Positions 1 through 16,173 of a DNA stretch of 16,173 nt are shown here, in pieces; position 1 is the stretch's first letter; every line of letters begins with the position of its first letter. Under the pieces are notes generated by a model, which saw only the letters and a list, made by a program, of their open reading frames with translations, did not search any database and was not told where the DNA came from. The stretch lies in IMG/VR virus record IMGVR_UViG_640753024_000004, positions 1 to 16,173 of that record; one strand, written 5' to 3'. Made by a program: the position numbers and the translations under genes. The DNA is from a virus (Duplodnaviria; Heunggongvirae; Uroviricota; Caudoviricetes).

Positions 1-996
1 TTATGGACGCATTATGGACATTCCTGACACCGGGTTAAGAGTCACAGCATCTTGTAAGAAATCCGGTGCAAAGTGTGCGTAGGTCATAGTTTGCTGAATG
101 TTAGAATGACCCAGGATGCGCTGCAATGTGATTATGTTACCTCCATTCATTATAAAATGTGTGGCAAATGTATGCCTCAAAACATGTACTGCTTGTCCGT
201 CAGGTAAATCGGGTTTTACTTCCCTGAGAGCGTTACGCACTTTGTAGTAACTGGCATTAAAAAGCCTGCCTGAATTTTTGGTCTTGATCCGTTTAATCAG
301 GTCCTGCGAAACGGGAATTGTCCTGCGTTTTCCGTTTTTAGTTTTCATAAACGTAACCATCTGGTTAATGATGTGTTCAGCTTTTAAATTAGACACTTCA
401 CTCCAGCGTCCACCAGTAGAAAGGCAGACCAGAGTTGCATTTAATTCATCACCATCAAGCATGGATAACAGCCGCGTAATCTCTTCACTGGACAAAAAAG
501 CCATTTCCGTAACAGCTTCACGTAACCGTTTAATCTCACGGAACGGGTTGTGGGAGTGGTATTCACCGGCGTCAATTAACTTGGTGAACATCCCGCTCAT
601 TATTGCCAGATGTCGATTTACGCTGGCTGGTTTTAGACCATCGTTCATCATTACAACGCGATAATCAGTTATCGTTTTCTTTGTTAGCTGGTCAGCTCTG
701 GACACTCCCATTTCTGCAAATTTGGCGATTATTGTCGTTAAACGCCCCCGTTCAATATCTCCACGCTCATGTGATTTTCCGTGATATATCCACCATCTAC
801 CTAACAACTCTGTAAGAGTTCGGCGGTCGGCTGGTTTCTCCAACCACTCTTTGTTGTGGTAGTTAACCAATACATGACGTTCGAATGCCTGAGCTTCACC
901 TTTAGTTTTAAATTTCCGCCTGATACGTTTTCCATCTGCACCCTGCGGTCTGACGTCCACTTCATAACGACCATCATCGAGCTTTTTAATAGACAT
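1..996 (-). CDS. int: Prophage tyrosine integrase (P2 Int-like), 331 aa
   Basis: Full ORF on the minus strand ending at the window edge. Position next to a leftward repressor gene matches the P2 int-C arrangement. Family assignment is from my reading of the translated sequence, not a search. Confidence 0.85.
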   Translation of the reverse strand: MSIKKLDDGRYEVDVRPQGADGKRIRRKFKTKGEAQAFERHVLVNYHNKEWLEKPADRRTLTELLGRWWIYHGKSHERGDIERGRLTTIIAKFAEMGVSRADQLTKKTITDYRVVMMNDGLKPASVNRHLAIMSGMFTKLIDAGEYHSHNPFREIKRLREAVTEMAFLSSEEITRLLSMLDGDELNATLVCLSTGGRWSEVSNLKAEHIINQMVTFMKTKNGKRRTIPVSQDLIKRIKTKNSGRLFNASYYKVRNALREVKPDLPDGQAVHVLRHTFATHFIMNGGNIITLQRILGHSNIQQTMTYAHFAPDFLQDAVTLNPVSGMSIMRP

Positions 997-1089: not shown

Positions 1090-1389
1090 TCAGCCAGTCT
1101 TCTGGTCTGAGTGGTGCAAGGTTGTTGAGTCTTGCCCAATGTGTGCGAGAGCCGGGGCTATTTGTCCAGCTGCTGGATCTGTTTCATCAAACATGAACCA
1201 GTCACGATACTTGCGAAAGCGTGGATGCTTAAACAGCTTCATACCTGCTTCCATAGGCATTTTTGATTTTCCTGATTCATATCCATGATATGTGTAGTAA
1301 TTAATTCCAATTAATTCAGCAAGTTCCTTAGTTTTAAGACGTTCGGATTCACGGATGAGCTTTAGTTTCTCACTTTGTTCACTTGACAT
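1090..1389 (-). CDS. C: Immunity repressor, P2 C-like, 99 aa from the ATG at 1389
   Basis: The ORF track starts at a TTG at 1407; the first ATG (1389) gives MSSEQSEKLK..., 99 aa, the length of P2 C. The C-terminal stretch GQIAPALAH..SGQKTG resembles what I recall of P2 C, while the N-terminal half looks different. A GGAG lies about 12 nt upstream of the ATG. Confidence 0.7.
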   Translation of the reverse strand: MSSEQSEKLKLIRESERLKTKELAELIGINYYTYHGYESGKSKMPMEAGMKLFKHPRFRKYRDWFMFDETDPAAGQIAPALAHIGQDSTTLHHSDQKTG

Positions 1390-1497
1390 AATTTTGCTAA
1401 TCTCCAATTATATTGCTACTTGGCAATTTGTGATTCACTCAAAAAGGCTCTAGATGGCTCCAGTTGGTGAATCGCAAATCTTATGGAGGATAGCAAA
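1390..1497. promoter_or_regulatory. Immunity switch region between the divergent C and cox-like genes, with a 13-bp inverted repeat (ATTTGTGATTCAC at 1426-1438, GTGAATCGCAAAT at 1467-1479)
   Basis: The inverted repeat (12 of 13 positions complementary, 28-bp spacer) is seen directly. Its role as operator and the presence of Pe/Pc-type promoters are inferred from P2/186 biology. Confidence 0.45.
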
Positions 1498-1854
1498 GTG
1501 ACGACAAATGTAGAAATTTCTTGTCCAACTAGCGATGAGGCAAGTTTCGAAAATGAAGCCAAACGTAAAAGCATTCAGATTTCAGAGCGCCCATCTGATT
1601 TGCTGTCGAAAGAAGGTTTTGCTCTTTACATCGGTAAGACACCACGCGCGGTGGCTGAAATGGCTAAAGCAGGAAAGCTGCCAGCCTTCTACATGACAGA
1701 CCCATTAAAACCAAGAGGGAAAGCTGAATTATGGATTAATCGCCGTGAGTGGGACAAGTACGCAGCCCAACTGGTTGATGAAGCTCCGACAGAATGGCAT
1801 GACTGGAAAAATCGCATTAGTTACAGCAAATCAAGACATGGCCGTGCGGCTTAA
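1498..1854 (+). CDS. cox: Cox-like excisionase / HTH regulator; start uncertain (GTG 1498 after GGAGGA, or ATG 1483)
   Basis: First rightward gene, opposite the repressor. The segment ...ALYIGKTPRAVAEMAKAGKLPAFYMTDP... follows the pattern I recall for P2 Cox. The product is longer than the 91-aa P2 Cox. Confidence 0.55.
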   Translation: MTTNVEISCPTSDEASFENEAKRKSIQISERPSDLLSKEGFALYIGKTPRAVAEMAKAGKLPAFYMTDPLKPRGKAELWINRREWDKYAAQLVDEAPTEWHDWKNRISYSKSRHGRAA

Positions 1855-1864
1855 GGTGGAAAGG

Positions 1865-2035
1865 ATGAATGAGCCTCGTTGTATTGCTCAGTTATTGCGT
1901 AACGAAAGCCCCAGGGCGATTGACTTCACCATCACCCACGGTAAGGGGCGTAAGGGAATCATTATCCGCACCAAAAAACAGAGTCCGTTAAAAAAGGCTC
2001 TGACCTTTCTGAAAAGCCGGAGGGTCTGGAAATGA
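1865..2035 (+). CDS. Small hypothetical protein at the P2 orf78 position; start uncertain (ATG 1865 after AAGGTGGAAAGG, or ATG 1838, or 1745)
   Basis: ORF in the rightward early operon. Its stop overlaps the next start as ATGA at 2032-2035. Confidence 0.4.
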   Translation: MNEPRCIAQLLRNESPRAIDFTITHGKGRKGIIIRTKKQSPLKKALTFLKSRRVWK

Positions 2036-2532
2036 CAGTGATGACGCTCAATCTCGTCGAAAAACAGCCAGCAGCTATGCGCCGGATAATTGGTAAGCAT
2101 CTTGCCGTCCCTCGCTGGCAGGATACATGTGATTATTATAATCAGATGATGGAGCGCGAACGGCTAACAGTTTGCTTTCATGCGCAGTTAAAACAACGTC
2201 ACGCAACGATGCGTTTTGAAGAAATGAACGACGTCGAACGTGAACGGCTGGTTTGTGCAATTGATGAACTGCGTGGGGCATTCTCAAAACGCCGTCAGGT
2301 TGGCGCAAGTGAGTATGCATATATTAGTTTTTTAACCGTCAGTCAGCGCCGTACTTTATTTATGCACGCACGACTGACAGAAAAAGAATTTAACCAGCCA
2401 TACTGGCGAATTAATGAAGAATCATGTTACTGGCGTGATGCTTTATTCCGTGCATTACGTGAATTATTCAGCCTGTTTGAGTATGCACCGACAATTCTGA
2501 CGTCGGTAAAACCAGAGCAATATCTGCATTAA
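2032..2532 (+). CDS. B: Replication protein B-like, 166 aa
   Basis: Called by synteny (after cox/orf78, before the small ORFs and gene A) and by its 166-aa length, which matches what I recall for P2 B. Sequence identity was not verified. Confidence 0.6.
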   Translation: MTVMTLNLVEKQPAAMRRIIGKHLAVPRWQDTCDYYNQMMERERLTVCFHAQLKQRHATMRFEEMNDVERERLVCAIDELRGAFSKRRQVGASEYAYISFLTVSQRRTLFMHARLTEKEFNQPYWRINEESCYWRDALFRALRELFSLFEYAPTILTSVKPEQYLH

Positions 2533-3346: not shown

Positions 3347-3618
3347 GTATTCGTATTGAAATTGGCGAACGTTATGTCGTTACCAGTGACAGCTTTCAGT
3401 TTATTCTCCACGAGAAAAAGAGAGCGGAAAGCGGTAAAAACGCCGGTCAGGAATGGCTGGCGGTGGTTGGTTATTATCCGAAATTAAGCCAGCTCGTTTC
3501 CGGCCTGATGCATCACGATATTCTGACCGGAAGCGCAAAGTCTTTTGCTGATTTAAACGCGCAGGTTGAGCAACTCAGCAGGCGTTGTTCAGAGGCTTTT
3601 GGCTCATATGGCCGTTAA
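3343..3618 (+). CDS. Hypothetical early protein (P2 orf83 position), 91 aa
   Basis: Start overlaps the previous stop (ATGA). Its stop overlaps the start of gene A. Confidence 0.55.
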   Translation: MSIRIEIGERYVVTSDSFQFILHEKKRAESGKNAGQEWLAVVGYYPKLSQLVSGLMHHDILTGSAKSFADLNAQVEQLSRRCSEAFGSYGR

Positions 3619-5884
3619 AGCCTCCGGGCGTTTTGTCCCTCCGTCAGCATTTGCCGCAGGCACCGGTAAGGCGTTTACCGGTGCTTATGCATGGAACGCG
3701 CCACGCGAGGCTGTCGGGCGCGAAAGACCCCTTACACGTGACGAGATGCGTCAGGTGCAAGGGGTTTTATCCACGATTAACCGTCTGCCTTACTTTTTGC
3801 GCTCGCTGTTTACTTCACGCTATGACTACATCCGGCGCAATAAAAGCCCGGTGCACGGGTTTTATTTTCTCACATCCACTTTTCAGCGTCGTTTATGGCC
3901 GCGCATTGAGCGTGTGAATCAGCGCCATGAAATGAACACCGACGCGTCGTTGCTGTTTCTGGCAGAGCGTGACCACTATGCGCGCCTGCCGGGAATGAAT
4001 GACAAGGAGCTGAAAAAGTTTGCCGCCCGTATCTCATCGCAGCTTTTCATGATGTATGAGGAACTCAGCGATGCCTGGGTGGATGCGCATGGCGAAAAAG
4101 AATCGCTGTTTACGGATGAGGCGCAGGCTCACCTCTATGGTCATGTTGCTGGCGCTGCACGTGCTTTCAATATTTCCCCGCTCTACTGGAAAAAATACCG
4201 TAAAGGACAGATGACCACGAGGCAGGCATATTCTGCCATTGCCCGTCTGTTTAACGATGAGTGGTGGACTCATCAGCTCAAAGGCCAGCGTATGCGCTGG
4301 CATGAGGCGTTACTGATTGCTGTCGGGGAGGTGAATAAAGACCGTTCTCCTTATGCCAGTAAACATGCCATTCGTGATGTACGTGCACGCCGCCAGGCAA
4401 ATCTGGAATTTCTTAAATCGTGTGACCTTGAAAACAGGGAAACCGGCGAGCGCATCGACCTTATCAGTAAGGTGATGGGCAGTATTTCTAATCCTGAAAT
4501 TCGCCGGATGGAGCTGATGAACACCATTGCCGGCATTGAGCGTTACGCCGCCGCAGAGGGTGATGTGGGGATGTTTATCACGCTGACCGCGCCGTCAAAG
4601 TATCACCCGACACGTCAGGTCGGAAAAGGCGAAAGTAAAACCGTCCAGCTAAATCACGGCTGGAACGATGAGGCATTTAATCCAAAGGATGCGCAGCGTT
4701 ATCTCTGCCATATCTGGAGCCTGATGCGCACGGCATTCAAGGATAATGATTTACAGGTCTACGGTTTGCGTGTCGTCGAGCCACACCACGACGGAACGCC
4801 GCACTGGCATATGATGCTTTTTTGTAATCCACGCCAGCGTAACCAGATTATTGAAATCATGCGTCGCTACGCGCTCAAAGAGGATGGAGACGAAAGAGGA
4901 GCCGCGCGAAACCGTTTTCAGGCAAAACATCTTAACCGGGGCGGTGCTGCGGGGTATATCGCGAAATACATCTCAAAAAACATCGATGGCTATGCACTGG
5001 ATGGTCAGCTCGATAACGATACCGGCAGGCCACTGAAAGATACTGCTGCGGCTGTTACCGCATGGGCGTCAACGTGGCGCATTCCGCAATTTAAAACGGT
5101 TGGCCTGCCGACAATGGGGGCTTACCGTGAACTACGCAAATTGCCTCGCGGCGTCAGCATTGCTGATGAATTTGACGAACGCGTCGAGGCTGCACGCGCC
5201 GCCGCAGACAGTGGTGATTTTGCGTTGTATATCAGCGCGCAGGGCGGGGCAAATGTCCCGCGCGATTGTCAGACTGTCAGGGTCGCCCGTAGCCCGTCGG
5301 ATGACGTTAACGAGTACGAGGAAGAAGTCGAGAGAGTGGTCGGCATTTACGCGCCGCATCTCGGCGCGCGTCATATTCATATCACCAGAACGACGGACTG
5401 GCGCATTGTGCCGAAAGTTCCGGTCGTTGAGCCTTTGACTTTAAAAAGCGGCATCGCCGCGCCTCGGAGTCCTGTCAATAACTGTGGAAAGCTCACCGGT
5501 GGTGATACTTCGTTACCGGCTCCCACACCTTCTGAACACGCCGCAGCAGTGCTTAATCTGGTTGATGACGGTGTTATCGAATGGAACGACACGGAGGTCG
5601 TGAGGGCGCTCAGGGGGGCATTAAAACACGACCTGAGAACACCAAATCGTCAGCAAAGAAACGGAAGCCCGTTAAAACCACATGAAATTGCACCATCGGC
5701 CAGACTGACCCGGTCGGAAAGAATGCAAATTACCCGTATCCGCGTTGACCTTGCTCAGAACGGTATCAGGCCGCAGCGATGGGAGCTTGAGGCGCTGGCG
5801 CGTGGCGCGACCGTAAATTATTACGGGAAATCTTTCAATTATCAGGTCGCTGATGAGTGGCCTGGATTTTTGTTACCCATTTGA
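3608..5884 (+). CDS. A: Rolling-circle replication initiator endonuclease gpA (HUH family), about 758 aa
   Basis: Contains the HUH-type active-site tyrosine motif GYIAKYISKNIDG. The whole protein matches my recollection of P2 gpA. ATG 3608 (MAVKASGRF...) is preferred over the in-frame TTG at 3566. Confidence 0.9.
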   Translation: MAVKASGRFVPPSAFAAGTGKAFTGAYAWNAPREAVGRERPLTRDEMRQVQGVLSTINRLPYFLRSLFTSRYDYIRRNKSPVHGFYFLTSTFQRRLWPRIERVNQRHEMNTDASLLFLAERDHYARLPGMNDKELKKFAARISSQLFMMYEELSDAWVDAHGEKESLFTDEAQAHLYGHVAGAARAFNISPLYWKKYRKGQMTTRQAYSAIARLFNDEWWTHQLKGQRMRWHEALLIAVGEVNKDRSPYASKHAIRDVRARRQANLEFLKSCDLENRETGERIDLISKVMGSISNPEIRRMELMNTIAGIERYAAAEGDVGMFITLTAPSKYHPTRQVGKGESKTVQLNHGWNDEAFNPKDAQRYLCHIWSLMRTAFKDNDLQVYGLRVVEPHHDGTPHWHMMLFCNPRQRNQIIEIMRRYALKEDGDERGAARNRFQAKHLNRGGAAGYIAKYISKNIDGYALDGQLDNDTGRPLKDTAAAVTAWASTWRIPQFKTVGLPTMGAYRELRKLPRGVSIADEFDERVEAARAAADSGDFALYISAQGGANVPRDCQTVRVARSPSDDVNEYEEEVERVVGIYAPHLGARHIHITRTTDWRIVPKVPVVEPLTLKSGIAAPRSPVNNCGKLTGGDTSLPAPTPSEHAAAVLNLVDDGVIEWNDTEVVRALRGALKHDLRTPNRQQRNGSPLKPHEIAPSARLTRSERMQITRIRVDLAQNGIRPQRWELEALARGATVNYYGKSFNYQVADEWPGFLLPI

Positions 5885-6150
5885 GTAAAAATGCAGCGTG
5901 ATTTTATATGCCTTTGAATGGATTATGCGAAGCGCCTCTAAGGCAGATGAGGAGCAATAGCATGCTGAAGTAGAAGGCTAAATTGTATTGAATCGCTAGC
6001 ATGTAATTTAAGGCAGCTATTTGATTCGAGTCATAAAAGAGCATCTATTTCGGCTAATAAAACCATTGCGAGTGACCTTTTGTCGAAGCATAATTCATCT
6101 CGAGCGAAGTCTTGCTAGTCTTTCATCGGAATGATGACAGGCGCAAAAAA

Positions 6151-6174
6151 ACCACCCTGGCAGGTGGTTTTTTT
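6151..6174. terminator. Bidirectional rho-independent terminator (ACCACC-CTGGC-AGGTGGT hairpin with an A-run before and a T-run after)
   Basis: Seen directly: aaaaaaACCACCctggcaGGTGGTttttttt. It lies downstream of gene A on the plus strand and downstream of the 37-aa ORF on the minus strand. Confidence 0.5.
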
Positions 6175-6186
6175 GTTTGAAGCATA

Positions 6187-6300
6187 TTAAAGAATAATAC
6201 TTACATGGATATTACTGACGTTTACTGACAAACCACTTGGACTACCATATGGATAGCCAAAGAGGGCCAGAACGAGAATGCAGTAATAGCACTTCTTCAT
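6187..6300 (-). CDS. Candidate 37-aa peptide MKKCYYCILVLALFGYPYGSPSGLSVNVSNIHVSIIL
   Basis: ATG preceded by AGGAGGAGAT on the minus strand. The stop sits 13 nt from the terminator hairpin. The N-terminus is hydrophobic. The ORF is not in the supplied track because it is too short. Confidence 0.35.
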   Translation of the reverse strand: MKKCYYCILVLALFGYPYGSPSGLSVNVSNIHVSIIL

Positions 6301-6872
6301 ATCTCCTCCTGTAAGCAGAGGGCAATTTCCGCCGATATATGCGCTTCTGAGGCGGAGTTACTATTTAGCGAAGTCTTGCCCTGAAATAATGCTCTGTTTA
6401 AACGCAAAGTGATCTGGCATATCACCGAACAGAGAGCCTGAACAACACAACATATAGTATGTCGTTGTTTCTGGTTGCATTTTATGTTGTGTAATACTGG
6501 TTTTGCATCAAGGATGTTTGAGCTTTTTTTGATATAGCTCAAAGTAAAAAGCAGGGACTACGGATGATAAGGTATTGAAAGCAATGTAAATTTTTTAAAG
6601 TTATTGGTGGCTAAAAAATGCACGGTTTCAATATGGCGGACTTAAATAAGCAATTAAAAAAGTCATAAATATCACTAAAATCATGGTGTTACGTTTTTTT
6701 TGTGGGAGCTGCGGTGACGCTTAAGTTGATTTGTCATTAAATAAGCCGTGCATGCAACAAGTGAATGTTTTTGCATGCGTCGGGGATGCCCGTTCCAGCT
6801 GCTCGCGGTCAGAGCTGGTGCGGATCCATAGTATCTATGCAACTGCATTAAAACCGCCACATGAAGCGGGCG

Positions 6873-6891
6873 GGCGAGGCGGGGAAAGCAC
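6873..6891. other. cos site: exact match to the P2/P4 19-nt cohesive-end sequence GGCGAGGCGGGGAAAGCAC
   Basis: The 19-mer is seen directly. Identity to the P2 cos sequence is from memory. The position (after the gene A region, before the portal gene) matches the P2 prophage map. Confidence 0.7.
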
Positions 6892-6934
6892 CGCGCGTAA
6901 GATAAACAGAAGAGCGAAGGATTATGGTTGAGTA

Positions 6935-6997
6935 TTTGTGTTTTTGTACATATGATAAAAAGGTGTTTACGCTTAAAAACACATCAAAGGAGATGAT
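6935..6997 (+). promoter_or_regulatory. AT-rich putative promoter and RBS (AGGAG about 6 nt before the ATG) of the ATPase cassette
   Basis: Contains TTGTGT/TTGTAC and TATGAT-like hexamers and an SD sequence. Exact -35/-10 assignment is unresolved. Confidence 0.3.
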
Positions 6998-8299
6998 ATG
7001 GAAAATATAAAGATTGATAAGTTTCTCACTATTCAAAAAGTTGATATTCCTCTTAAGAAAGTGAATATATTTATTGGGCCTCAGGCACAGGGGAAAAGTG
7101 TCATTGCAAAGCTAATAAAATATTTTAAAGATTATCCTATGGATATACTACGAGCTTCAACAGAGGGTAAAACTAAAAGAGATATATTGAAGGAGCAAAA
7201 GAATAAGTTTAGTAAAATTTTCCCTCAGCAGTATTGGGCTGATGATGAGTTTTTTATTGAGTATAGTAATAAGCACTATTGGGTGCGGATTACTAATCGA
7301 AAAAATAGCAAAGGGTCATTGAAAATAGACCTTTCTGAGAATTTAACGAAGACGATTGCTAAACTTCGTTTGATTGTACGAAAGGATTTAGATGAAAATA
7401 TTGAGAATTCACTTGCAGAAAGCGTTACGAGAAGACGTAAACGCGGAATTGAACATGAATTGCGAGTATGTCTTTCTCTAGGATTGTTTTCAGAACCAGA
7501 AACAAAGCTTGAAAGTGTTTTTTATATCCCCGCAGGGCGCTCTTTTTTTGCTAATTTGCAAAAAAATGTGTTTTCATTTTTATCCAGTAGTATAGAAATT
7601 GACTACTTTTTGACAGAGTTTGGTTCTCTGTATGAACAAACAAAAAAATTATTTAACCAAGATTACATGATTAGGATGCTTAGGGGGGCTGTGCCTCAAC
7701 ATGTTAATAAACTTGTGGAGGAGTTGATTTGCGGAAAATATATAACAGAAAAGGGTGAGGATTTTATTCGTCATGCTGCTAAGAAGACGAATCTTAACAA
7801 CTCGAGCTCAGGGCAGCAAGAAGCGTTACCAATGGCTTTAATGTTATCCTCATGGCCGTATTTACAGTCTGTGACTAGTAAGAGTTTTATTATTGAGGAG
7901 CCGGAGGCTCATCTGTTTCCTTCTGCCCAAGCAAAAGTTGTATCTTTAATAGCCTCAGCGTATAACCAAGCAGAAAGCTATTGTAGCTATACAATAACAA
8001 CACATAGTCCATATATTCTAAGTGCCTTCAATAATTTGATTCAAGCAGGTAATGCATTAAAGTGTATTAAGGGCAAGAATAATACCGATATCGAACGCTT
8101 ATATAAGCTTGTTCCAGAGTCTCAAATTATTGATTTTGATGATGTGACAGCTTATATGGTTAATGCTGGGAAAGTGACGGAAATACTGGATTCCGAACTA
8201 AATATATTAGATGCGAATGAAATAGATAGGATTTCCTCTATTTTTTCAGAGACTTTTGATGCATTGATTGATATCGAATATTCGGCTACTGTGAATTAG
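6998..8299 (+). CDS. ABC-type ATPase of the OLD/AAA_21-like class, 433 aa; cargo gene
   Basis: Walker A GPQAQGKS, ABC-signature-like SSGQQ, Walker B/D-loop FIIEEPEAHLFP, H-loop TTHSP. AT-rich codon usage unlike the prophage backbone. No C-terminal TOPRIM or nuclease domain is apparent. Confidence 0.85.
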   Translation: MENIKIDKFLTIQKVDIPLKKVNIFIGPQAQGKSVIAKLIKYFKDYPMDILRASTEGKTKRDILKEQKNKFSKIFPQQYWADDEFFIEYSNKHYWVRITNRKNSKGSLKIDLSENLTKTIAKLRLIVRKDLDENIENSLAESVTRRRKRGIEHELRVCLSLGLFSEPETKLESVFYIPAGRSFFANLQKNVFSFLSSSIEIDYFLTEFGSLYEQTKKLFNQDYMIRMLRGAVPQHVNKLVEELICGKYITEKGEDFIRHAAKKTNLNNSSSGQQEALPMALMLSSWPYLQSVTSKSFIIEEPEAHLFPSAQAKVVSLIASAYNQAESYCSYTITTHSPYILSAFNNLIQAGNALKCIKGKNNTDIERLYKLVPESQIIDFDDVTAYMVNAGKVTEILDSELNILDANEIDRISSIFSETFDALIDIEYSATVN

Positions 8300-8307
8300 G
8301 TGATTGA

Positions 8308-8745
8308 ATGTGTAAAAATTGCAAAGGAAAAACAAAAAATAAAATCATTGTGCTATCTGATAAAGGAACGTCAACGCAATTGTCAGTCACAAATGATAAT
8401 GAGTTGGAAGTTGAGCATAAGTTAATAGATGGTTGCGCTATTGTTGTTGGAGAGCGGTGTGATCATTATTTGAAGATTTATAACAATCAGGATGTTTCAC
8501 ATCTTTTTGTTGAACTTAAAGGAAGTGATGTTGAAAAAGCTGTTAAACAGATAGTGACAACTTTAAAGTCAGGTGTGATTAATGTAGGTGCTAAAGAAAA
8601 AAAACATGGTGCTATTGTTAGCACTAGGAATCCGCTAAACTCAACAGAAACCAATAGGTTAAAGAAGAAAATTCTTTTGAGTGACGGAGTGAATTTGCAT
8701 TTCTATAAAATGAAGGCGCAGCAAAAAATAACTTCTTTTACATGA
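8308..8745 (+). CDS. Small Cys-rich partner protein, 145 aa, of unknown function; possible nuclease-like effector
   Basis: Starts 9 nt after the ATPase stop with AGGTGA upstream, so it is an operon partner. Has CxxC (C2,C5) plus C43/C51, and a D52...E69-L-K71 arrangement that could be a PD-(D/E)xK-like core; the latter is speculative. Confidence 0.7.
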   Translation: MCKNCKGKTKNKIIVLSDKGTSTQLSVTNDNELEVEHKLIDGCAIVVGERCDHYLKIYNNQDVSHLFVELKGSDVEKAVKQIVTTLKSGVINVGAKEKKHGAIVSTRNPLNSTETNRLKKKILLSDGVNLHFYKMKAQQKITSFT

Positions 8746-8758
8746 AGTGTTCTCTTGT

Positions 8759-8782
8759 ACAGGCATGCATTTGCATGCCTGT
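8759..8782. terminator. Near-perfect palindrome ACAGGCATGCA-TT-TGCATGCCTGT after the cassette; possible terminator or protein-binding site
   Basis: 11-bp stem seen directly. The T-tail is weak (cttttac). Confidence 0.35.
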
Positions 8783-8848
8783 CGTGTAATCTTTTACACT
8801 ATATTTGTGTTGGTTCTAATCTTGTTATGTGTTTGTTTCGGTGATGGG

Positions 8849-9391
8849 TCATAATGAATAAGTTCGAAAGCGAAATACATCTTCGCCAACCCAACAGTTA
8901 ATTTCTTTACATCGCTCTTGGAGGAACGTTAGCTCGTTGCGTACAAAGACTTGTGCTGCTTTTGTTACATCTCCAAATCCTCCTGTGTTGTTGGGCATCA
9001 TTCCTATCATTTGGGGAGGCACGCGATGAGCACTCATTAGATCTTCAGCACTTGCTTTTTTGATATTAAAAAAATCGTCCTTCGTTGCCACTTCACTGAG
9101 CGGGATAATTTTAATGCCGTCGGCTTTCCCCTGTGGGGCATAGAGAAACAGATTTTTAAAGTTATTACGGCCTTTCGACTTAACCATGTTTTCGCGAAGC
9201 ATTTCGATATCGTTGCGATCCTGCACGGCATCGGTGACGTACATGATGTATCCGGCATGAGCGCCGTTTTCGTAATACTTGCGGCGGAACAGCGTGGCCG
9301 ACTCATTCAGCCAGGCAGAGTTAAGGGCGCTGAGATATTCCGGCAGGCCGTACAGCTCCTGATTAATATCCGGCTCCAGCAGGTGAAACAC
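8849..9391 (-). pseudogene. Q: Portal protein gene Q, 3' portion only (about 180 codons, C-terminal half)
   Basis: The translation matches what I recall of the C-terminal half of the P2 portal protein (P2 Q is about 344 aa). The reading frame has no plausible N-terminus and runs into the E/E' remnant. Confidence 0.75.
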
Positions 9392-9394
9392 GGA

Positions 9395-9647
9395 GCCGGG
9401 TGACCGAGCAGGAAGTCGCCGCGCTGGAACTGCCTGACCTTGTGGCGCTGGCCGGTAAGGTGGTCGGTTTTTTGTCGCCGAACTCGGTGCAGTGACGTTT
9501 CCGAAAAATCTCTCGGTCGATGACCTGATGGCGGATGTGGCAGTGATATTTCACTGGCCGCCATCAGAACTGTATCCCATGAGCCTGACCGAACTCATCA
9601 CATGGCGCGAAAAGGCGCTCCGGCGAAGCGGAAACACGAATGAGTAA
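9395..9647 (+). pseudogene. E: 3' remnant of tail chaperone genes E and E' (E frame to the stop at 9493-9495; E' extension frame to the stop at 9645-9647, overlapping the T start)
   Basis: Two overlapping frames: ...TEQEVAALELPDLVALAGKVVGFLSPNSVQ* and ...FFVAELGAVTFPKNLSVDDLMADVAVIFHWPPSELYPMSLTELITWREKALRRSGNTNE*, joined at a T6G slippery site. No start codon or 5' part is present. Confidence 0.6.
9468..9474 (+). other. Programmed -1 frameshift slippery sequence TTTTTTG of the E/E' pair
   Basis: T6G is seen where the E frame (GGT TTT TTG) and E' frame (TTT TTT GTC) overlap. A frameshift of this kind is established for the P2 E/E' tail chaperone pair. Confidence 0.5.
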
Positions 9648-10697
9648 CAATGTAAAATTACAGGTATTGCTCAGGGCTGTTGACCAGGCATCACGCCCGT
9701 TTAAATCCATCCGTACAGCGAGCAAATCGCTGTCGGGGGATATCCGGGAAACACAAAAATCACTGCGCGAGCTGAACGGTCAGACATCCCGTATTGAGGG
9801 ATTTCGCAAGACCAGTGCACAGCTCGCCGTGACTGGTCATGCACTTGAAAAGGCTCGGCAGGAAGCAGAAGCCCTTGCCACACAGTTTAAAAACACCGAA
9901 CGTCCGACCCGTGCTCAGGCGAAAGTGCTGGAATCAGCAAAGCGAGCGGCGGAGGACTTACAGGCGAAATATAACCGCCTGACGGATTCCGTTAAACGCC
10001 AGCAGCGGGAACTGGCCGCTGTGGGAATTAATACCCGCAATCTTGCACATGATGAGCAGGGACTGAAAAACCGTATCAGTGAAACCACCGCACAGCTTAA
10101 CCGGCAGCGCGACGCGCTGGCGCGTGTCAGTGCGCAACAGGCAAAACTTAACGCAGTCAAACAGCGTTATCAGGCCGGAAAGGAACTGGCCGGAAATATG
10201 GCCTCAGTAGGCGCTGCCGGTGTGGGGATTGCGGCGGCGGGAACGATGACCGGAGTTAAGTTGCTGATGCCCGGTTATGAGTTTGCGCAGAAAAACTCAG
10301 AATTGCAGGCCGTGCTCGGAGTGGCAAAAGACTCCGCCGAAATGACCGCACTACGCAAACAGGCGCGCCAGCTCGGCGACAATACCGCCGCCTCGGCGGA
10401 TGATGCGGCCGGTGCACAGATAATCATCGCGAAAGCGGGTGGAGATGCTGCGGCTATTCAGGCGGCAACGCCGGTCACGCTGAATATGGCACTGGCGAAT
10501 CAGCGGTCGATGGAAGAAAACGCGCAACTGTTGCTGGGGACTAAGGCATCCTTTCAACTGTCAAATGATGATGTCAGCCATGTGGGCGACGTGTTGTCGG
10601 CAACGATGAATAAGTCGGCGGCTGATTTTCAGGGGCTCAGTGATGCACTGACTTACCTCGGGCCGGTTGCGAGGACGGCGGGTGTAAGTCTTGAGCA
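9640..10697 (+). pseudogene. T: Tail tape-measure gene T, 5' part, interrupted by an IS21-family insertion
   Basis: Coiled-coil-like, Ala/Gln-rich N-terminal tape-measure sequence. The frame runs into the IS left end and stops at 10723-10725 inside the IS inverted repeat. Confidence 0.8.
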
Positions 10698-10750
10698 TGT
10701 CAGCGCCAATGATATAAGACAGTAATTCACCATTTGGATTGTCCGCTCCA
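10698..10750. repeat. IS21-family left terminal inverted repeat region
   Basis: Matches the right end in inverted orientation: terminal TGTCA(G/A)CGCCAA, then CCATTTGGATTGTCCGCT against CCATTTTTAATGTCCGCT. Confidence 0.6.
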
Positions 10751-10798
10751 CCCAACATGTTGTTTCCTTAAGGTTCCTACACCACAAAGGGAACACTC

Positions 10799-12765
<1,967 letters not shown>

Positions 12766-12767
12766 TG

Positions 12768-12822
12768 ACCAATAGCGGACATTAAAAATGGCGAAAAACG
12801 GCCAATAATCTTGGCGTTGACA
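12768..12822. repeat. IS21-family right terminal inverted repeat region (two AGCGGACA motifs, ends ...GTTGACA)
   Basis: Inverted match to the left end, seen directly. Confidence 0.6.
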
Positions 12823-14216
12823 AGCAGGCAGCGGCCATGACAGGTGTGCTGCATGACAATAACATCAGGGGGTCAATGGCGGGTACTGGTAGTAGTGCCG
12901 TTGTCACCCGATTACAGGCTCCGACAGGGAAAGCATGGGAAGCACTCAAAGAGCTTGGCGTTAAAACCTCGGACAAAAAGGGAAATATGCGTCCGTTGTT
13001 CACCATTCTGAAAGAGATTCAGGCCAGCTTTGATAAACACAAGCTGGGAACGTCTCAGAAGGGGGAATACCTTAAAACCATTTTTGGTGAGGAAGCCCTG
13101 AAATCAGCGAACGTTTTACTGGCAGCGGCTGCAAGCGGAAAACTGGATAAGCTGACCGCCACGCTGAAAGCCTCGGACGGTAAAACGGAAGAGCTGGTTA
13201 AAATCATGCAGGATAACCTCGGCGGTGACTTTAAGGAGTTTCAGTCTGCTTATGAGGCGGTGGGGACTGACCTGTTTGACCAACAGGAAGGCGCACTGCG
13301 TAATCTCACGCAGACGGCCACAAAGTATGTGTTAAAACTCGACGGCTGGATCCAGAAAAACAAATCACTGGCGTCAACCATCGGCCTTATTGTCGGTGGC
13401 GCACTGGCGCTTATTGGCATCATCGGTGCAATTGGTCTTGTAGCCTGGCCGGTTATCACCGGCATTAATGCCATCATCGCGGCAGCAGGCGCAATGGGGG
13501 CAATCTTCACGACGGTTGGCAGTGCTGTTATGACGGCCATCGGGGCGATTAGCTGGCCGATTGTGGCTGTGGTGGCCGCCATTGTCGCCGGGGCGTTGCT
13601 TATCCGTAAATACTGGGAGCCTGTCAGCGCATTCTTTGGTGGTGTGGTTGAAGGGCTGAAAGCAGCATTTGCGCCGGTGGGGGAGCTGTTCTCGCCACTG
13701 AAACCGGTGTTTGACTGGCTGGGCGAAAAGTTACAGGCCGCGTGGCAGTGGTTTAAAAACCTGATTGCCCCGGTCAAAGCCACCCAGGACACCCTGAACC
13801 GTTGCCGTGATACTGGCGTCATGTTCGGGCAGGCACTGGCTGACGCGCTGATGCTGCCGCTTAATGCGTTCAACAAACTGCGCAGCGGTATTGACTGGGT
13901 ACTGGAAAAACTCGGCGTCATCAACAAAGAGTCTGACGCACTTGACCAGACTGCCGCCAGAACTCATGCCGCCACGTATGGCACAGGTGGTTATATTCCG
14001 GCGACCAGCTCTTATGCAGGCTATCAGGCTTACCAGCCGGTCACGGCACCGGCTGGTCGCTCTTATGTGGACCAGAGTAAAAACGAATATCACATCAACC
14101 TGACGGGCGGTACTGCGCCGGGGACACAGCTTGACCGCCAGTTACAGGATGTGCTCGAAAAATACGAGCGGGATAAACGTGCGCGCGCCCGTGCCAGCAT
14201 GATGCATGACGGTTAA
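12823..14216 (+). pseudogene. T: Tail tape-measure gene T, 3' part
   Basis: Removing the IS and one AGCA copy rejoins the frame as ...GVSLEQAAAMTGVLHDNNIRGSMAGTG..., giving about 816 codons, close to the length I recall for P2 gpT. Contains a hydrophobic Gly/Ala-rich central segment typical of tape-measure proteins. Confidence 0.8.
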
Positions 14217-14230
14217 GGAGGTAACGAAAA

Positions 14231-14710
14231 ATGATGCTCGCGTTAGGTATGTTTGTTTTTATGCGCCAGACGCTGCCACACCAGACCATGCAGCGTGAAT
14301 CAGATTATCGCTGGCCGTCAAATTCCCGTATCGGCAAACGGGATGCCTTTCAGTTTCTCGGTGCGGGTGAGGAAAACATCACGCTTGCCGGTGTGCTTTA
14401 TCCTGAACTGACCGGCGGAAAGCTGACGATGACCACGCTCAGACTGATGGCAGAGGAAGGCCGGGCGTGGCCGTTGCTGGATGGCACCGGCATGATTTAC
14501 GGCATGTATGTCATCAGCAAGGTGAGTGAAACAGGGAGTATTTTCTTTGCAGACGGCACACCCCGGAAAATTGATTTTACGCTGTCGCTCACCCGCGTTG
14601 ATGAATCACTGGCCGCGCTTTATGGCGATATCGGTAAACAGGAGGAATCGCTCATCGGTAAGGCTGGCAGTATGGCGACTAAATTCACGGATATGACGGG
14701 GGCGGGATAA
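14231..14710 (+). CDS. U: Tail protein gpU-like, 159 aa
   Basis: Synteny T-U-D-ogr, AAGGAGG upstream, and a length matching what I recall for P2 gpU. Confidence 0.75.
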   Translation: MMLALGMFVFMRQTLPHQTMQRESDYRWPSNSRIGKRDAFQFLGAGEENITLAGVLYPELTGGKLTMTTLRLMAEEGRAWPLLDGTGMIYGMYVISKVSETGSIFFADGTPRKIDFTLSLTRVDESLAALYGDIGKQEESLIGKAGSMATKFTDMTGAG

Positions 14711-15873
14711 TGCTGGATGCACTGACATTTGATGCAGGCAGTACGCTGACGCCGGATTACATGCTGATGCTCGACAGCAGGGATATTACCGGCAATATCA
14801 GCGACCGTCTGATGAGTATGACCCTGACGGATAACCGGGGCTTTGAGGCTGACCAGCTTGATATTGAACTGAACGATGCCGACGGGCAGGTCGGGCTGCC
14901 GGTTCGTGGCGCTGTCCTGACGGTGTATATCGGCTGGAAAGGTTTTGCCCTGGTATGCAAAGGGAAATTTACCGTTGATGAGGTTGAACACCGGGGCGCA
15001 CCGGATGTGGTCACCATCCGCGCCCGGAGTGCAGATTTTCGCGGGACGCTCAATTCCCGCCGGGAAGGCTCCTGGCATGACACCACGCTCGGTGCGATTG
15101 TTGAGGCGATAGCCACCCGTAACAGGCTGGAAGCCAGTGTCGCTCCGTCACTGGCCGGAATTAAAATCCCGCACATCGACCAGTCGCAGGAGTCCGATGT
15201 GAAATTCCTGACCCGTCTTGCTGAACGCAACGGCGGCGAGGTGTCGGTAAAAATGGGAAAACTGCTGTTTCTCAAAGCGGGGCAGGGGGTGACGGCCAGC
15301 GGTAAAAAAATCCCGCAGATCACCATCACCCGCAGCGACGGTGACCGTCATCATTTTGCGATTGCTGACCGTGGAGCCTATACCGGCGTAACGGCAAAGT
15401 GGCTTCACACCAAAGACCCGAAGCCGCAAAAGCAGAAGGTAAAACTGAAACGCAAAAAGAAAGAGAAACACCTGCGCGCACTGGAGCACCCGAAAGCGAA
15501 ACCAGTCACGCAGAAGAAAGCGCCAAAAGTACCGGAAGCGCGCGAAGGTGAATGCATGGCCGGTGAGGCTGACAACGTTTTTGCCCTGACCACGGTATAT
15601 GCCACGAAAGCGCAGGCCATGCGCGCCGCTCAGGCGAAGTGGGATAAGCTGCAACGGGGCGTGGCGGAGTTCTCCATCAGCCTGGCTACCGGTCGGGCAG
15701 ATATTTACACGGAAACACCGGTCAAAGTGTCAGGCTTTAAGCGCGTCATAGACGAGCAGGACTGGACAATCACTAAGGTGACACATTTTCTGAATAATAG
15801 CGGCTTCACGACGTCCTTAGAGCTTGAGGTCAGGCTTTCTGATGTGGAGTACGAAACAGAAGATGATGAGTGA
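14710..15873 (+). CDS. D: Tail protein gpD-like, 387 aa
   Basis: Start overlaps the U stop (ATAATG). Synteny and length match P2 gpD as I recall it. Has a Lys-rich central linker. Confidence 0.8.
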   Translation: MLDALTFDAGSTLTPDYMLMLDSRDITGNISDRLMSMTLTDNRGFEADQLDIELNDADGQVGLPVRGAVLTVYIGWKGFALVCKGKFTVDEVEHRGAPDVVTIRARSADFRGTLNSRREGSWHDTTLGAIVEAIATRNRLEASVAPSLAGIKIPHIDQSQESDVKFLTRLAERNGGEVSVKMGKLLFLKAGQGVTASGKKIPQITITRSDGDRHHFAIADRGAYTGVTAKWLHTKDPKPQKQKVKLKRKKKEKHLRALEHPKAKPVTQKKAPKVPEAREGECMAGEADNVFALTTVYATKAQAMRAAQAKWDKLQRGVAEFSISLATGRADIYTETPVKVSGFKRVIDEQDWTITKVTHFLNNSGFTTSLELEVRLSDVEYETEDDE

Positions 15874-15954: not shown

Positions 15955-16173
15955 ATGTTTCATTGTCCTTTATGCCAGCATGCCGCACATGCGCGTACAA
16001 GCCGCTATATCACTGACACGACAAAAGAGCGTTATCACCAGTGTCAGAACGTGAATTGCAGCGCCACGTTCATCACTTATGAGTCGGTACAGCGATACAT
16101 CGTGAAACCGGGAGAAGTCCACGCCGTAAGGCCGCACCCGTTGCCGTCAGGGCAGCAAATTATGTGGATGTAA
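15955..16173 (+). CDS. ogr: Late-gene transcriptional activator Ogr (Cys4 zinc finger), 72 aa from MFHCPLCQH...
   Basis: CPLC...CQNVNC zinc-finger motif; the sequence matches my recollection of P2 Ogr. The track start at 15892 is probably too far upstream. Confidence 0.9.
   Translation: MFHCPLCQHAAHARTSRYITDTTKERYHQCQNVNCSATFITYESVQRYIVKPGEVHAVRPHPLPSGQQIMWM

What the first reader, a model, noticed from the sequence alone, without database searches (positions are those of the whole stretch)
6873..6891. Intact cos site in a packaging-defective element: the remnant could be mobilised by a helper phage
An exact P2/P4-type 19-nt cohesive-end sequence is retained alongside int, the immunity switch, replication genes B and A, and the late activator ogr, while all head and terminase genes are gone. 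Such an element could in principle be excised, replicated and packaged by a co-resident or superinfecting P2-like helper, spreading the adjacent ATPase cassette. At about 16 kb it is well below full P2 genome size, which may restrict packaging into helper-sized heads.
Basis: inference. Interest (0 to 1): 0.5.

Follow-up and report, generated by a model that had tools for sequence, protein, structure and literature searches.

The report
P2 cos site in decayed prophage
The window is a half-deleted P2-like prophage of E. coli E24377A that still has a genuine P2 packaging (cos) site and intact attachment sites and replication genes, so a helper phage could in principle move it; this is a known kind of element and I found no sign that it has ever moved.

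Summary
Window 6873-6891 is identical to the annotated cosL/cosR of P2 and to the left end of P4. It lies in the ~60-bp core shared by P2 and P4, between gene A and a portal (Q) fragment.

The window is the pflA-site P2-like prophage of E. coli E24377A (CP000800.1). A Q'-to-E' deletion, ~19 kb relative to a full-length relative, removed the terminase, capsid, lysis and most tail genes. An IS21-family element splits the tape-measure gene.

The cis and trans parts needed for helper-dependent transfer look intact:
- both 13-bp att cores, which lie outside the window
- int, C, cox, B and A
- a 45-nt ori stretch identical to P2
- ogr

The cos core has one unusual base (C to A at -14; C in 115 of 119 sampled sites). 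The A variant also occurs in full-length prophages. The non-P2 right flank is shared with full-length prophages and resembles P4.

So "mobilisable in principle" holds. However, the deletion junction is absent from 5,426 complete E. coli genomes, IMG/VR, JGI metagenomes and GTDB representatives. The idea also has published precedent (Sp13 of O157 Sakai). Recombination into an infecting phage is the more likely route for the ATPase cassette. This is ordinary prophage decay, of low to moderate interest.

The parts
6873..6891 (+). 19-nt P2/P4-type cohesive-end sequence GGCGAGGCGGGGAAAGCAC
   Evidence: Identical to the annotated cosL/cosR of P2 and to the P4 left end. Single occurrence; chance expectation 0.01.
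6838..6897 (+). cos core: 35-nt conserved left flank, the 19-mer, and 6 nt (CGCGCG) on the right. One atypical base, A at 6859 (-14), where 115 of 119 sampled sites have C.
   Evidence: Anchored comparison with P2, P4, 186-like and other phages. IMG/VR survey. The change weakens the CCGCCC/GGGCGG inverted repeat.
1..996 (-). integrase, 331 aa, full length
   Evidence: ORF. Same length as in the full-length prophages EP91A and 2452. Pfam Phage_integrase in the gene call.
1090..1389 (-). C-type immunity repressor (99 aa, HTH)
   Evidence: Pfam HTH_19; gene call. The allele differs from that of KFu022/2452.
1483..1854 (+). cox (excision directionality factor and Pc repressor)
   Evidence: Pfam Phage_Cox, E = 3e-29.
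2032..2532 (+). replication gene B
   Evidence: 166 aa, Phage_RepB.
3608..5884 (+). replication endonuclease A (758 aa)
   Evidence: Phage_GPA. 96% DNA identity to P2 A.
5444..5488 (+). ori: 45 nt identical to the P2 sequence around the annotated nick site
   Evidence: The P2 rep_origin at 29892 maps here with 45/45 identity.
6998..8745 (+). two-gene low-GC cargo between cos and Q: a 433-aa AAA_15/AAA_21 ATPase and a 145-aa partner (candidate defence system PDC-M29)
   Evidence: Pfam. PADLOC PDC-M29A E = 1.9e-31 and PDC-M29B E = 1.6e-4. GC 33-37%. Lies in the known gpA-gpQ hotspot (PMC9122126).
8849..9402 (-). 3' fragment of portal gene Q (180-aa ORF); the 5' part is deleted
   Evidence: Pfam Phage_portal, profile positions 117-266 of 321. 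Colinear with EP91A up to 9402.
9401..9402 (.). deletion junction (2-bp overlap) joining mid-Q to the 3' part of E/E'; ~19 kb missing relative to EP91A
   Evidence: The junction is absent from other collections.
9640..14216 (+). tape-measure gene T, split by an IS
   Evidence: PhageMin_Tail halves. 99.7-99.9% identity to the intact EP91A T gene.
10698..12822 (+). IS21-family element (istA 390 aa, istB 265 aa), with a 4-bp target duplication AGCA on each side
   Evidence: Pfam rve and IstB_IS21. Boundaries and target duplication.
14231..15873 (+). tail genes U and D, which have lost their operon promoter
   Evidence: Phage_P2_GpU and Phage_GPD. The upstream FI-FII-E region is deleted.
15955..16173 (+). 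ogr late-gene activator (72 aa)
   Evidence: Ogr_Delta; annotated ogrK in relatives.

Best explanation
The 19-mer is a genuine P2-type cos site. It survives passively in a recently decayed P2-like prophage of E. coli E24377A, integrated at the 5' end of pflA.

One illegitimate deletion (2-bp junction) joined the middle of portal gene Q to the end of gene E. It removed the terminase, scaffold, capsid, lysis, baseplate, fibre, sheath and tube genes. An IS21-family element later split the tape-measure gene. cos survived because it lies between gene A and the remaining 3' end of Q, next to a two-gene ATPase cargo in the known cos-proximal defence hotspot.

The element is 16,389 bp from att to att. 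It keeps everything needed in cis (attL, attR, ori, cos core) and its own int, cox, C, B, A and ogr. It makes no heads, no terminase, no complete tails and no lysis proteins.

Inferred mechanism: if Int and Cox excise the element, a P2-type terminase (gpM/gpP) from a heteroimmune P2-like helper could cut the closed circle at cos and package it. That could be a monomer (49% of a P2 genome) or, a better fit, a dimer (97.6%).

Shown here: sequence identity and intactness of the sites and genes. Inferred: that any of these steps actually occurs. The evidence suggests it has not spread.
For: - **cos identity.** Exact match to P2 and P4 cos. Conserved core flanks.
- **Right junction.** The same cos/cargo junction is found in 9 of 5,426 complete genomes, including full-length prophages in EP91A and in strain 2452 (uninterrupted).
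- **P4 comparison.** P4 shares only about 7 nt with P2 to the right of cos, yet P2 terminase packages it (PMC9122126).
- **A variant.** It occurs on 4 IMG/VR contigs with 3 different right flanks, one on a 35.5-kb contig.
- **Source and structure.** Source genome and flanks. att cores and arms identical to those of full-length prophages, with one copy in K-12. ori 45/45 identical to P2. Gene inventory. Deletion and IS boundaries.
- **No spread.** The junction is absent from 5,426 complete E. coli genomes, GTDB representatives, IMG/VR and JGI metagenomes. It is present only in E24377A and two near-identical SRA assemblies.
- **Varied decay elsewhere.** Other remnants have other deletion endpoints, and one has lost cos. 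This argues for unselected decay.
Against: - No experiment was done, so cos cleavage, excision and replication are all untested.
- The C-to-A change at -14 hits a base that is C in 115 of 119 sampled sites and weakens a conserved inverted repeat next to the nick. It could reduce cos function.
- I could not read the deletion analysis of cos (Ziermann & Calendar 1990). The minimal-site argument therefore rests on the P2/P4 comparison.
- Intact int, cox, B, A and ogr ORFs could mean either a recent deletion or ongoing selection. I cannot tell these apart.
Confidence: 0.75

Rival explanations
1. The ATPase cassette spreads mainly by homologous recombination (marker rescue), not by packaging of the whole remnant. 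An infecting P2-like phage recombines with the remnant in gene A or the cos core on one side and in the Q fragment on the other. It picks up the cassette and carries it in a fully functional genome.
For: - The cos-to-Q block (6838-9402) is 99.0% identical to strain 2452, while the early region is only 95.7-96.8% identical. The A-side cargo is unrelated. This mosaic has a breakpoint exactly at the start of the cos core.
- The A variant of the core sits on three different right flanks.
- The cassette is flanked by segments 96-99% identical to many P2-like phages.
- Rapid swapping at this hotspot is documented, and whether defective elements take part is posed as an open question (PMC9122126; PMC13586616).
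Against: The surviving Q homology is short, about 550 bp, of which ~360 bp is highly similar to most phages. The mosaic shows past exchange among prophages, not that this remnant was ever a donor. This route does not exclude whole-element packaging.
Confidence: 0.5
2. The remnant is an active helper-dependent element, in effect a satellite derived from P2. It excises, replicates with its own A and B, uses Ogr to switch on a helper's late genes, and is regularly packaged and transferred.
For: - Complete set of att, int, cox, C, B, A, ori, cos and ogr.
- Dimer length is 97.6% of P2.
- Experimental precedent: Sp13, a P2-like prophage of O157 Sakai that lacks head and packaging genes, is induced and found as DNase-protected DNA (PMC2669165).
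Against: - The deletion junction is confined to one clone.
- The element carries dead weight: an IS-split T, promoterless U and D, and a Q stump.
- It has no capsid-size or helper-derepression genes of the P4 type.
- From established P2 biology, P2-type repressors are not SOS-cleaved and A acts in cis.
- Deletion endpoints in other remnants vary, and one removed cos.
Confidence: 0.1
3. The cos site is sequence-perfect in the 19-mer but functionally dead, because of the -14 C-to-A change or the loss of the P2-specific right flank.
For: C at -14 in 115 of 119 sampled sites. The predicted stem next to the nick weakens from about -13.6 to -9.9 kcal/mol. About 100 bp of P2 sequence between cos and Q is replaced by cargo from +7 onward.
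Against: - The A variant is present in the full-length EP91A prophage and on a 35.5-kb viral contig with a canonical right flank.
- The same right junction is found in uninterrupted full-length prophages.
- P4 also lacks the P2 right flank and is packaged by P2 terminase (PMC9122126).
Confidence: 0.15

Closest known systems
cos site of phage P2 and satellite P4 (Peduovirus cohesive-end site)
   Same: Identical 19-nt cohesive-end sequence. The flanking core is conserved, and the site has the same position between the gene A side and portal gene Q.
   Different: One atypical base at -14. The right flank from +7 is cargo DNA instead of the P2 cos-to-Q spacer; it resembles P4 at +1 to +6. The cognate terminase genes are deleted from the same element.
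Sp13, the defective P2-like prophage of E. coli O157:H7 Sakai (Asadulghani et al. 2009, PMC2669165)
   Same: A P2-like prophage that lacks most morphogenetic and packaging genes but keeps the early genes. Sp13 was shown to be induced, amplified and recovered as DNase-protected DNA.
   Different: Sp13 carries a P4 epsilon-like gene proposed to explain its induction; no such gene is seen here. Behaviour was measured for Sp13 and nothing has been measured for this element.
Cos-proximal defence hotspot of P2-like phages (Rousset et al. 2022, PMC9122126; NAR 2026, PMC13586616)
   Same: Cargo lies between gpA and gpQ next to cos. An ABC-type ATPase with a small partner is typical hotspot content. 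Defective P2-like elements that keep near-identical defence genes have been described.
   Different: Here the cargo is on the Q side of cos, starting 7 nt after the cohesive end. The system is only a PADLOC candidate (PDC-M29) and is not a validated defence.
Satellite phage P4
   Same: Shares the cos core with a P2 helper. Has an integrase, its own replication functions and an Ogr/Delta-family activator, and lacks head genes.
   Different: Replication uses P2 A/B, not the alpha primase. There are no sid/psu or epsilon genes. The element is clearly a deletion derivative of a P2-like phage, 96-99% identical to full-length prophages. At 16.4 kb it is too large for a P4-size head (P4 genome 11.6 kb; inference from genome length).

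Membership tests
P2/P4-type cos site | 19-nt cohesive-end sequence GGCGAGGCGGGGAAAGCAC | tested here: met
   19/19 identical to annotated P2 cosL/cosR and the P4 left end.
P2/P4-type cos site | Conserved flanking core shared by P2 and P4 (about 30-35 nt to the left, about 6-7 nt to the right) | tested here: met
   6838-6872 and 6892-6897 match. There is one substitution at -14, which is A in 4 of 119 sampled sites.
P2/P4-type cos site | Genomic position between the gene A side and portal gene Q | tested here: met
   A at 3608-5884, cos at 6873, Q fragment at 8849-9402.
P2/P4-type cos site | Cleavage and packaging by gpM/gpP terminase | not testable with these tools
   Needs a transduction or in vitro ter assay.
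P2-like (Peduoviridae) prophage | Early-region synteny int-C-cox-B-A, with D-ogr at the other end, flanked by att repeats | tested here: met
   96-99% DNA identity to full-length prophages.
P2-like (Peduoviridae) prophage | Complete structural, packaging and lysis module (Q P O N M L ... FI FII E T) | tested here: not met
   About 19 kb from mid-Q to E is deleted and T is split by an IS. The element is defective.
P4-like satellite | alpha primase/helicase, epsilon, sid/psu, delta | tested here: not met
   No such ORFs. Replication genes are P2 A/B, and only the Ogr/Delta-family gene is present.
Helper-mobilised element (satellite-like behaviour) | Evidence of horizontal spread: the same element at other sites, in other lineages or in virion DNA | tested here: not met
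   The junction is absent from 5,426 E. coli genomes, GTDB representatives, IMG/VR and JGI metagenomes. It is found only in E24377A and two near-identical assemblies.
PADLOC candidate system PDC-M29 | Two adjacent genes matching the PDC-M29A and PDC-M29B profiles | tested here: inconclusive
   A: E = 1.9e-31, but the best stretch covers only the C-terminal third. B: E = 1.6e-4. Function is untested and the family itself is only a candidate.

The most novel reading that the evidence does not exclude
The remnant is a satellite in the making, derived from P2. Once derepressed (spontaneously, or by a P4-type antirepressor), it would excise with its own Int and Cox and replicate with its own cis-acting A. 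Its Ogr would trans-activate the late genes of a co-resident or incoming heteroimmune P2-like phage. It would then be packaged as a head-filling dimer (32.8 kb, 97.6% of P2), giving efficient transfer of the cos-adjacent ATPase cassette.
Probability: 0.07. Interest if true: 0.55.

Novelty: new member of a known kind. Interest (0 to 1): 0.2.

Why it matters
If the remnant were mobilised, it would show that a decayed P2 prophage can act as a helper-dependent carrier of a defence cassette. That bears on an open question raised in PMC13586616: are defence genes in defective P2/P4 elements domesticated, or still exchanged? As the evidence stands, this is one more defective P2-like prophage. It has good sequence-level prerequisites for transfer and no sign of spread. 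Its practical value is as a clean test substrate: intact att, ori and cos, no packaging genes, and a natural single-base cos variant.

Tried and rejected
- **Primary cos literature.** I tried to read Ziermann & Calendar 1990; it is not held. The minimal-cos argument therefore rests on my own P2/P4/186/window comparison.
- **Search for the deletion junction.** A 30-nt exact junction pattern gave 0 hits in GTDB representative genomes, IMG/VR and JGI metagenomes. A 301-nt junction query spanned the junction in none of 5,426 complete E. coli genomes.
- **Co-resident helper.** E24377A is not in the annotated E. coli collection. I could not scan the rest of its genome for a co-resident P2-like helper or P4-like satellite. 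Literature searches for E24377A prophages gave nothing specific.
- **Structured RNA near cos.** I considered whether the ORF-poor 5885-6727 stretch or the cos hairpin is a known RNA. Rfam gave no hit at gathering threshold and only chance-level hits below it.
- **Selective retention of cos.** I considered whether cos is selectively retained in remnants and rejected it. Other remnants have different endpoints and one has lost cos.
- **Right flank as disqualifying.** I considered the loss of the P2 right flank disqualifying and rejected that. P4 and uninterrupted full-length prophages have the same kind of flank.

Full report
**1. The observation**

Window 6873-6891 reads GGCGAGGCGGGGAAAGCAC. 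This string is identical to the features annotated cosL (1-19) and cosR (33575-33593) in the P2 reference NC_001895. It is also identical to the first 19 nt of the P4 reference NC_001609. It occurs once in the window. Even allowing three mismatches, 200 dinucleotide-preserving shuffles gave a mean of 0.01 matches.

**2. What the window is**

ORF listing, Pfam scans and gene calls give the following map.

| Feature | Coordinates | Strand / note |
|---|---|---|
| int | 1-996 | - |
| C-type repressor | 1090-1389 | - |
| cox | 1483-1854 | + |
| B | 2032-2532 | + |
| four small early ORFs | | |
| A | 3608-5884 | + |
| ORF-poor stretch | 5885-6727 | |
| cos | 6873-6891 | |
| AAA_15/AAA_21 ATPase | 6998-8299 | low GC |
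| 145-aa partner | 8308-8745 | |
| C-terminal 180 aa of portal Q | 8849-9391 | - |
| tail end of E/E' | | |
| tape-measure T, two pieces | 9640-10697 and 12823-14216 | split by IS |
| IS21-family element | 10698-12822 | 4-bp duplication AGCA |
| U | 14231-14710 | |
| D | 14710-15873 | |
| ogr | 15955-16173 | |

An exact-protein look-up of the IS-truncated T ORF found the source: E. coli E24377A, CP000800.1. The window is an exact substring of it.

Compared with the full-length prophage of strain EP91A at the same chromosomal site, the window is colinear and 99.4% identical up to 9402. It resumes at 9401 inside gene E at 99.7-99.9% identity. A single deletion with a 2-bp junction therefore removed about 19 kb. 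The lost genes are the 5' half of Q, then P, O, N, M, L, the lysis genes, the baseplate and fibre genes, FI, FII and most of E.

The exceptions are a portal stump and the remaining tail genes T, U and D.

**3. Is the cos site intact beyond the 19-mer?**

I anchored the window, P2, P4, a 186-like phage and several prophages at the 19-mer.

- *Left flank.* About 35 nt to the left are shared by all. Only a 3-nt loop varies.
- *Right flank.* Only about 6-7 nt are shared between P2 and P4. The window has the P4-like CGCGCG and then runs straight into the leader of the ATPase cassette.
- *Why the right flank probably does not matter.* P4 is packaged by the P2 terminase and shares only this core with P2 (PMC9122126), so the P2-specific right flank is unlikely to be required. 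This is an inference: I could not obtain the original deletion study.
- *The same junction in other prophages.* The identical right junction occurs in 9 of 5,426 complete E. coli genomes. One of them is strain 2452, which has a full-length, uninterrupted prophage.
- *The one anomaly.* At -14 (window 6859) the window has A. A sample of 119 cos sites from IMG/VR has C in 115 and A in 4.
- *Effect and distribution of the A variant.* The change removes one pair of a 6-bp inverted repeat (CCGCCC/GGGCGG) that abuts the nick. The A variant is also found in EP91A's full-length prophage. In IMG/VR it occurs on three different right flanks, one of them on a 35.5-kb contig. It is therefore probably tolerated.

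**4. The other requirements for mobilisation**

- *att sites.* The window was cut from the int stop codon to the ogr stop codon, so the att sites lie outside it. In the source locus (L130), a 13-bp core, ACCAATAACTGAC, is present 90-102 bp left of the window and 114-126 bp right of it. The arms are the same as in the prophages of EP91A, 2452 and KFu022. K-12 has a single copy at the empty pflA-pflB site.
- *Element length.* The att-to-att length is 16,389 bp.
- *ori.* The 45 nt around the annotated P2 nick site are 45/45 identical at 5444-5488.
- *Genes.* int, C, cox, B, A and ogr have the same lengths as in full-length relatives.
- *Size.* A monomer is 48.8% of P2 and a dimer is 97.6%. Published work shows that P4-cos cosmids at about 40% of capsid capacity are packaged (PMC2231350). 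It also shows that three P4 genomes can fill a P2 head, at low efficiency (PMC6893505). Size is a modest obstacle, not a prohibitive one.

**5. Why 'could be mobilised' is still only a possibility**

- *No spread.* The Q'/E' junction was not found in 5,426 complete E. coli genomes, GTDB species representatives, IMG/VR or JGI metagenome contigs. It is present only in E24377A and two SRA assemblies that are 100% and 99.9% identical to it. There is no sign of horizontal spread.
- *Varied decay elsewhere.* Other P2-like remnants have other endpoints:
  - a P/T deletion at the cpxP-fieF site that keeps cos (L135)
  - an A/H deletion at the pflA site that removed cos (DLI.5a, L136)
  - a tail-gene deletion in KFu022

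  Retention of cos here looks like an accident of where the deletion fell.
- *P2 biology.* From established knowledge of P2, the repressor is not SOS-cleavable, Cox is needed for excision, and A acts preferentially in cis. A helper must therefore be heteroimmune and still bring about excision of the resident element. Such phages plausibly exist: the same att site and a 95-96% identical int region carry a second immunity allele in strains 2452 and KFu022. This remains inference.

**6. A likelier route for the cassette**

The cos-to-Q block (6838-9402) is 99.0% identical to strain 2452. The early region is only 95.7-96.8% identical, and the cargo on the A side is unrelated. The A variant of the core sits on several different right flanks. 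These mosaics point to recombination at or next to the cos core, as described for this hotspot (PMC9122126; PMC13586616). An infecting P2-like phage could pick up the cassette from the remnant by a double crossover in A or cos on one side and the Q stump on the other, without the remnant ever being packaged.

**7. Comparison with what is known**

- The site is a member of the P2/P4 cos family by sequence and position. Cleavage is untested.
- The element is a defective member of the P2-like prophages.
- It is not a P4-like satellite: it has no alpha, epsilon or sid/psu genes.
- The idea that a P2-like prophage lacking head and packaging genes can still be induced and packaged has direct experimental precedent in Sp13 of O157 Sakai (PMC2669165).
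- Defective P2 elements that keep defence genes are described in PMC13586616.
- The ATPase pair best matches the PADLOC candidate PDC-M29. It has no validated function.

**8. Verdict**

Every sequence prerequisite that I could test is met. However, mobilisation is unproven, there is no trace of spread, and the concept is already known. I classify the finding as a new member of a known kind and score its interest at 0.2.

Noticed in passing
L130 259-330 (just left of the window; E24377A CP000800.1): Integration at the 5' end of pflA replaces its start codon. The phage arm supplies a new N-terminus, so pflA is called as 265 aa in lysogens against 246 aa in K-12.
   Followed up: partly
window 10698-12822: A 2,125-bp IS21-family element (istA 390 aa, istB 265 aa; terminal repeats TGTCAGCGCCAA and TTGGCGTTGACA) with a 4-bp target duplication AGCA cleanly splits the tape-measure gene.
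   Followed up: yes
window 5885-6727: An ~850-bp ORF-poor stretch downstream of gene A is 90-93% conserved in Salmonella phage MET_P1_103_31 and a Peduovirus P2 record. The only shared call is a 37-aa hydrophobic ORF (6187-6300, minus strand). There is no Rfam match. It might be a small toxin or an RNA locus.
   Followed up: partly
window 8308-8745: By eye, the 145-aa partner of the ATPase has a D...(E)LK pattern reminiscent of a PD-(D/E)xK nuclease. It has no Pfam or PHROG hit and only a weak PADLOC PDC-M29B match (E = 1.6e-4).
   Followed up: no
window 1330-1587 compared with L001 and L010: Prophages at the same pflA att site, with 95-96% identical int regions, carry two different C/cox/operator alleles. 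Heteroimmune phages that share this element's integration specificity therefore exist.
   Followed up: partly
L135 (NZ_CM151359.1, cpxP-fieF site), also hits H46 and H47: An independent ~14.5-kb P2-like remnant with a terminase P / tape-measure T deletion. It keeps cos, a complete portal gene, the early genes, U, D and ogr, and is seen in at least three genomes. It is a better candidate for testing whether cos-bearing remnants spread.
   Followed up: no
window 9447-9475: The T-rich slippery site and hairpin of the E/E' programmed frameshift survive in the truncated E fragment just after the deletion junction.
   Followed up: no
window 6854-6869, minus strand: Read on the minus strand, the conserved inverted repeat left of cos looks like an intrinsic terminator (stem followed by TTTTAATGCA). 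It might stop leftward transcription across cos. The window's base change weakens it.
   Followed up: partly
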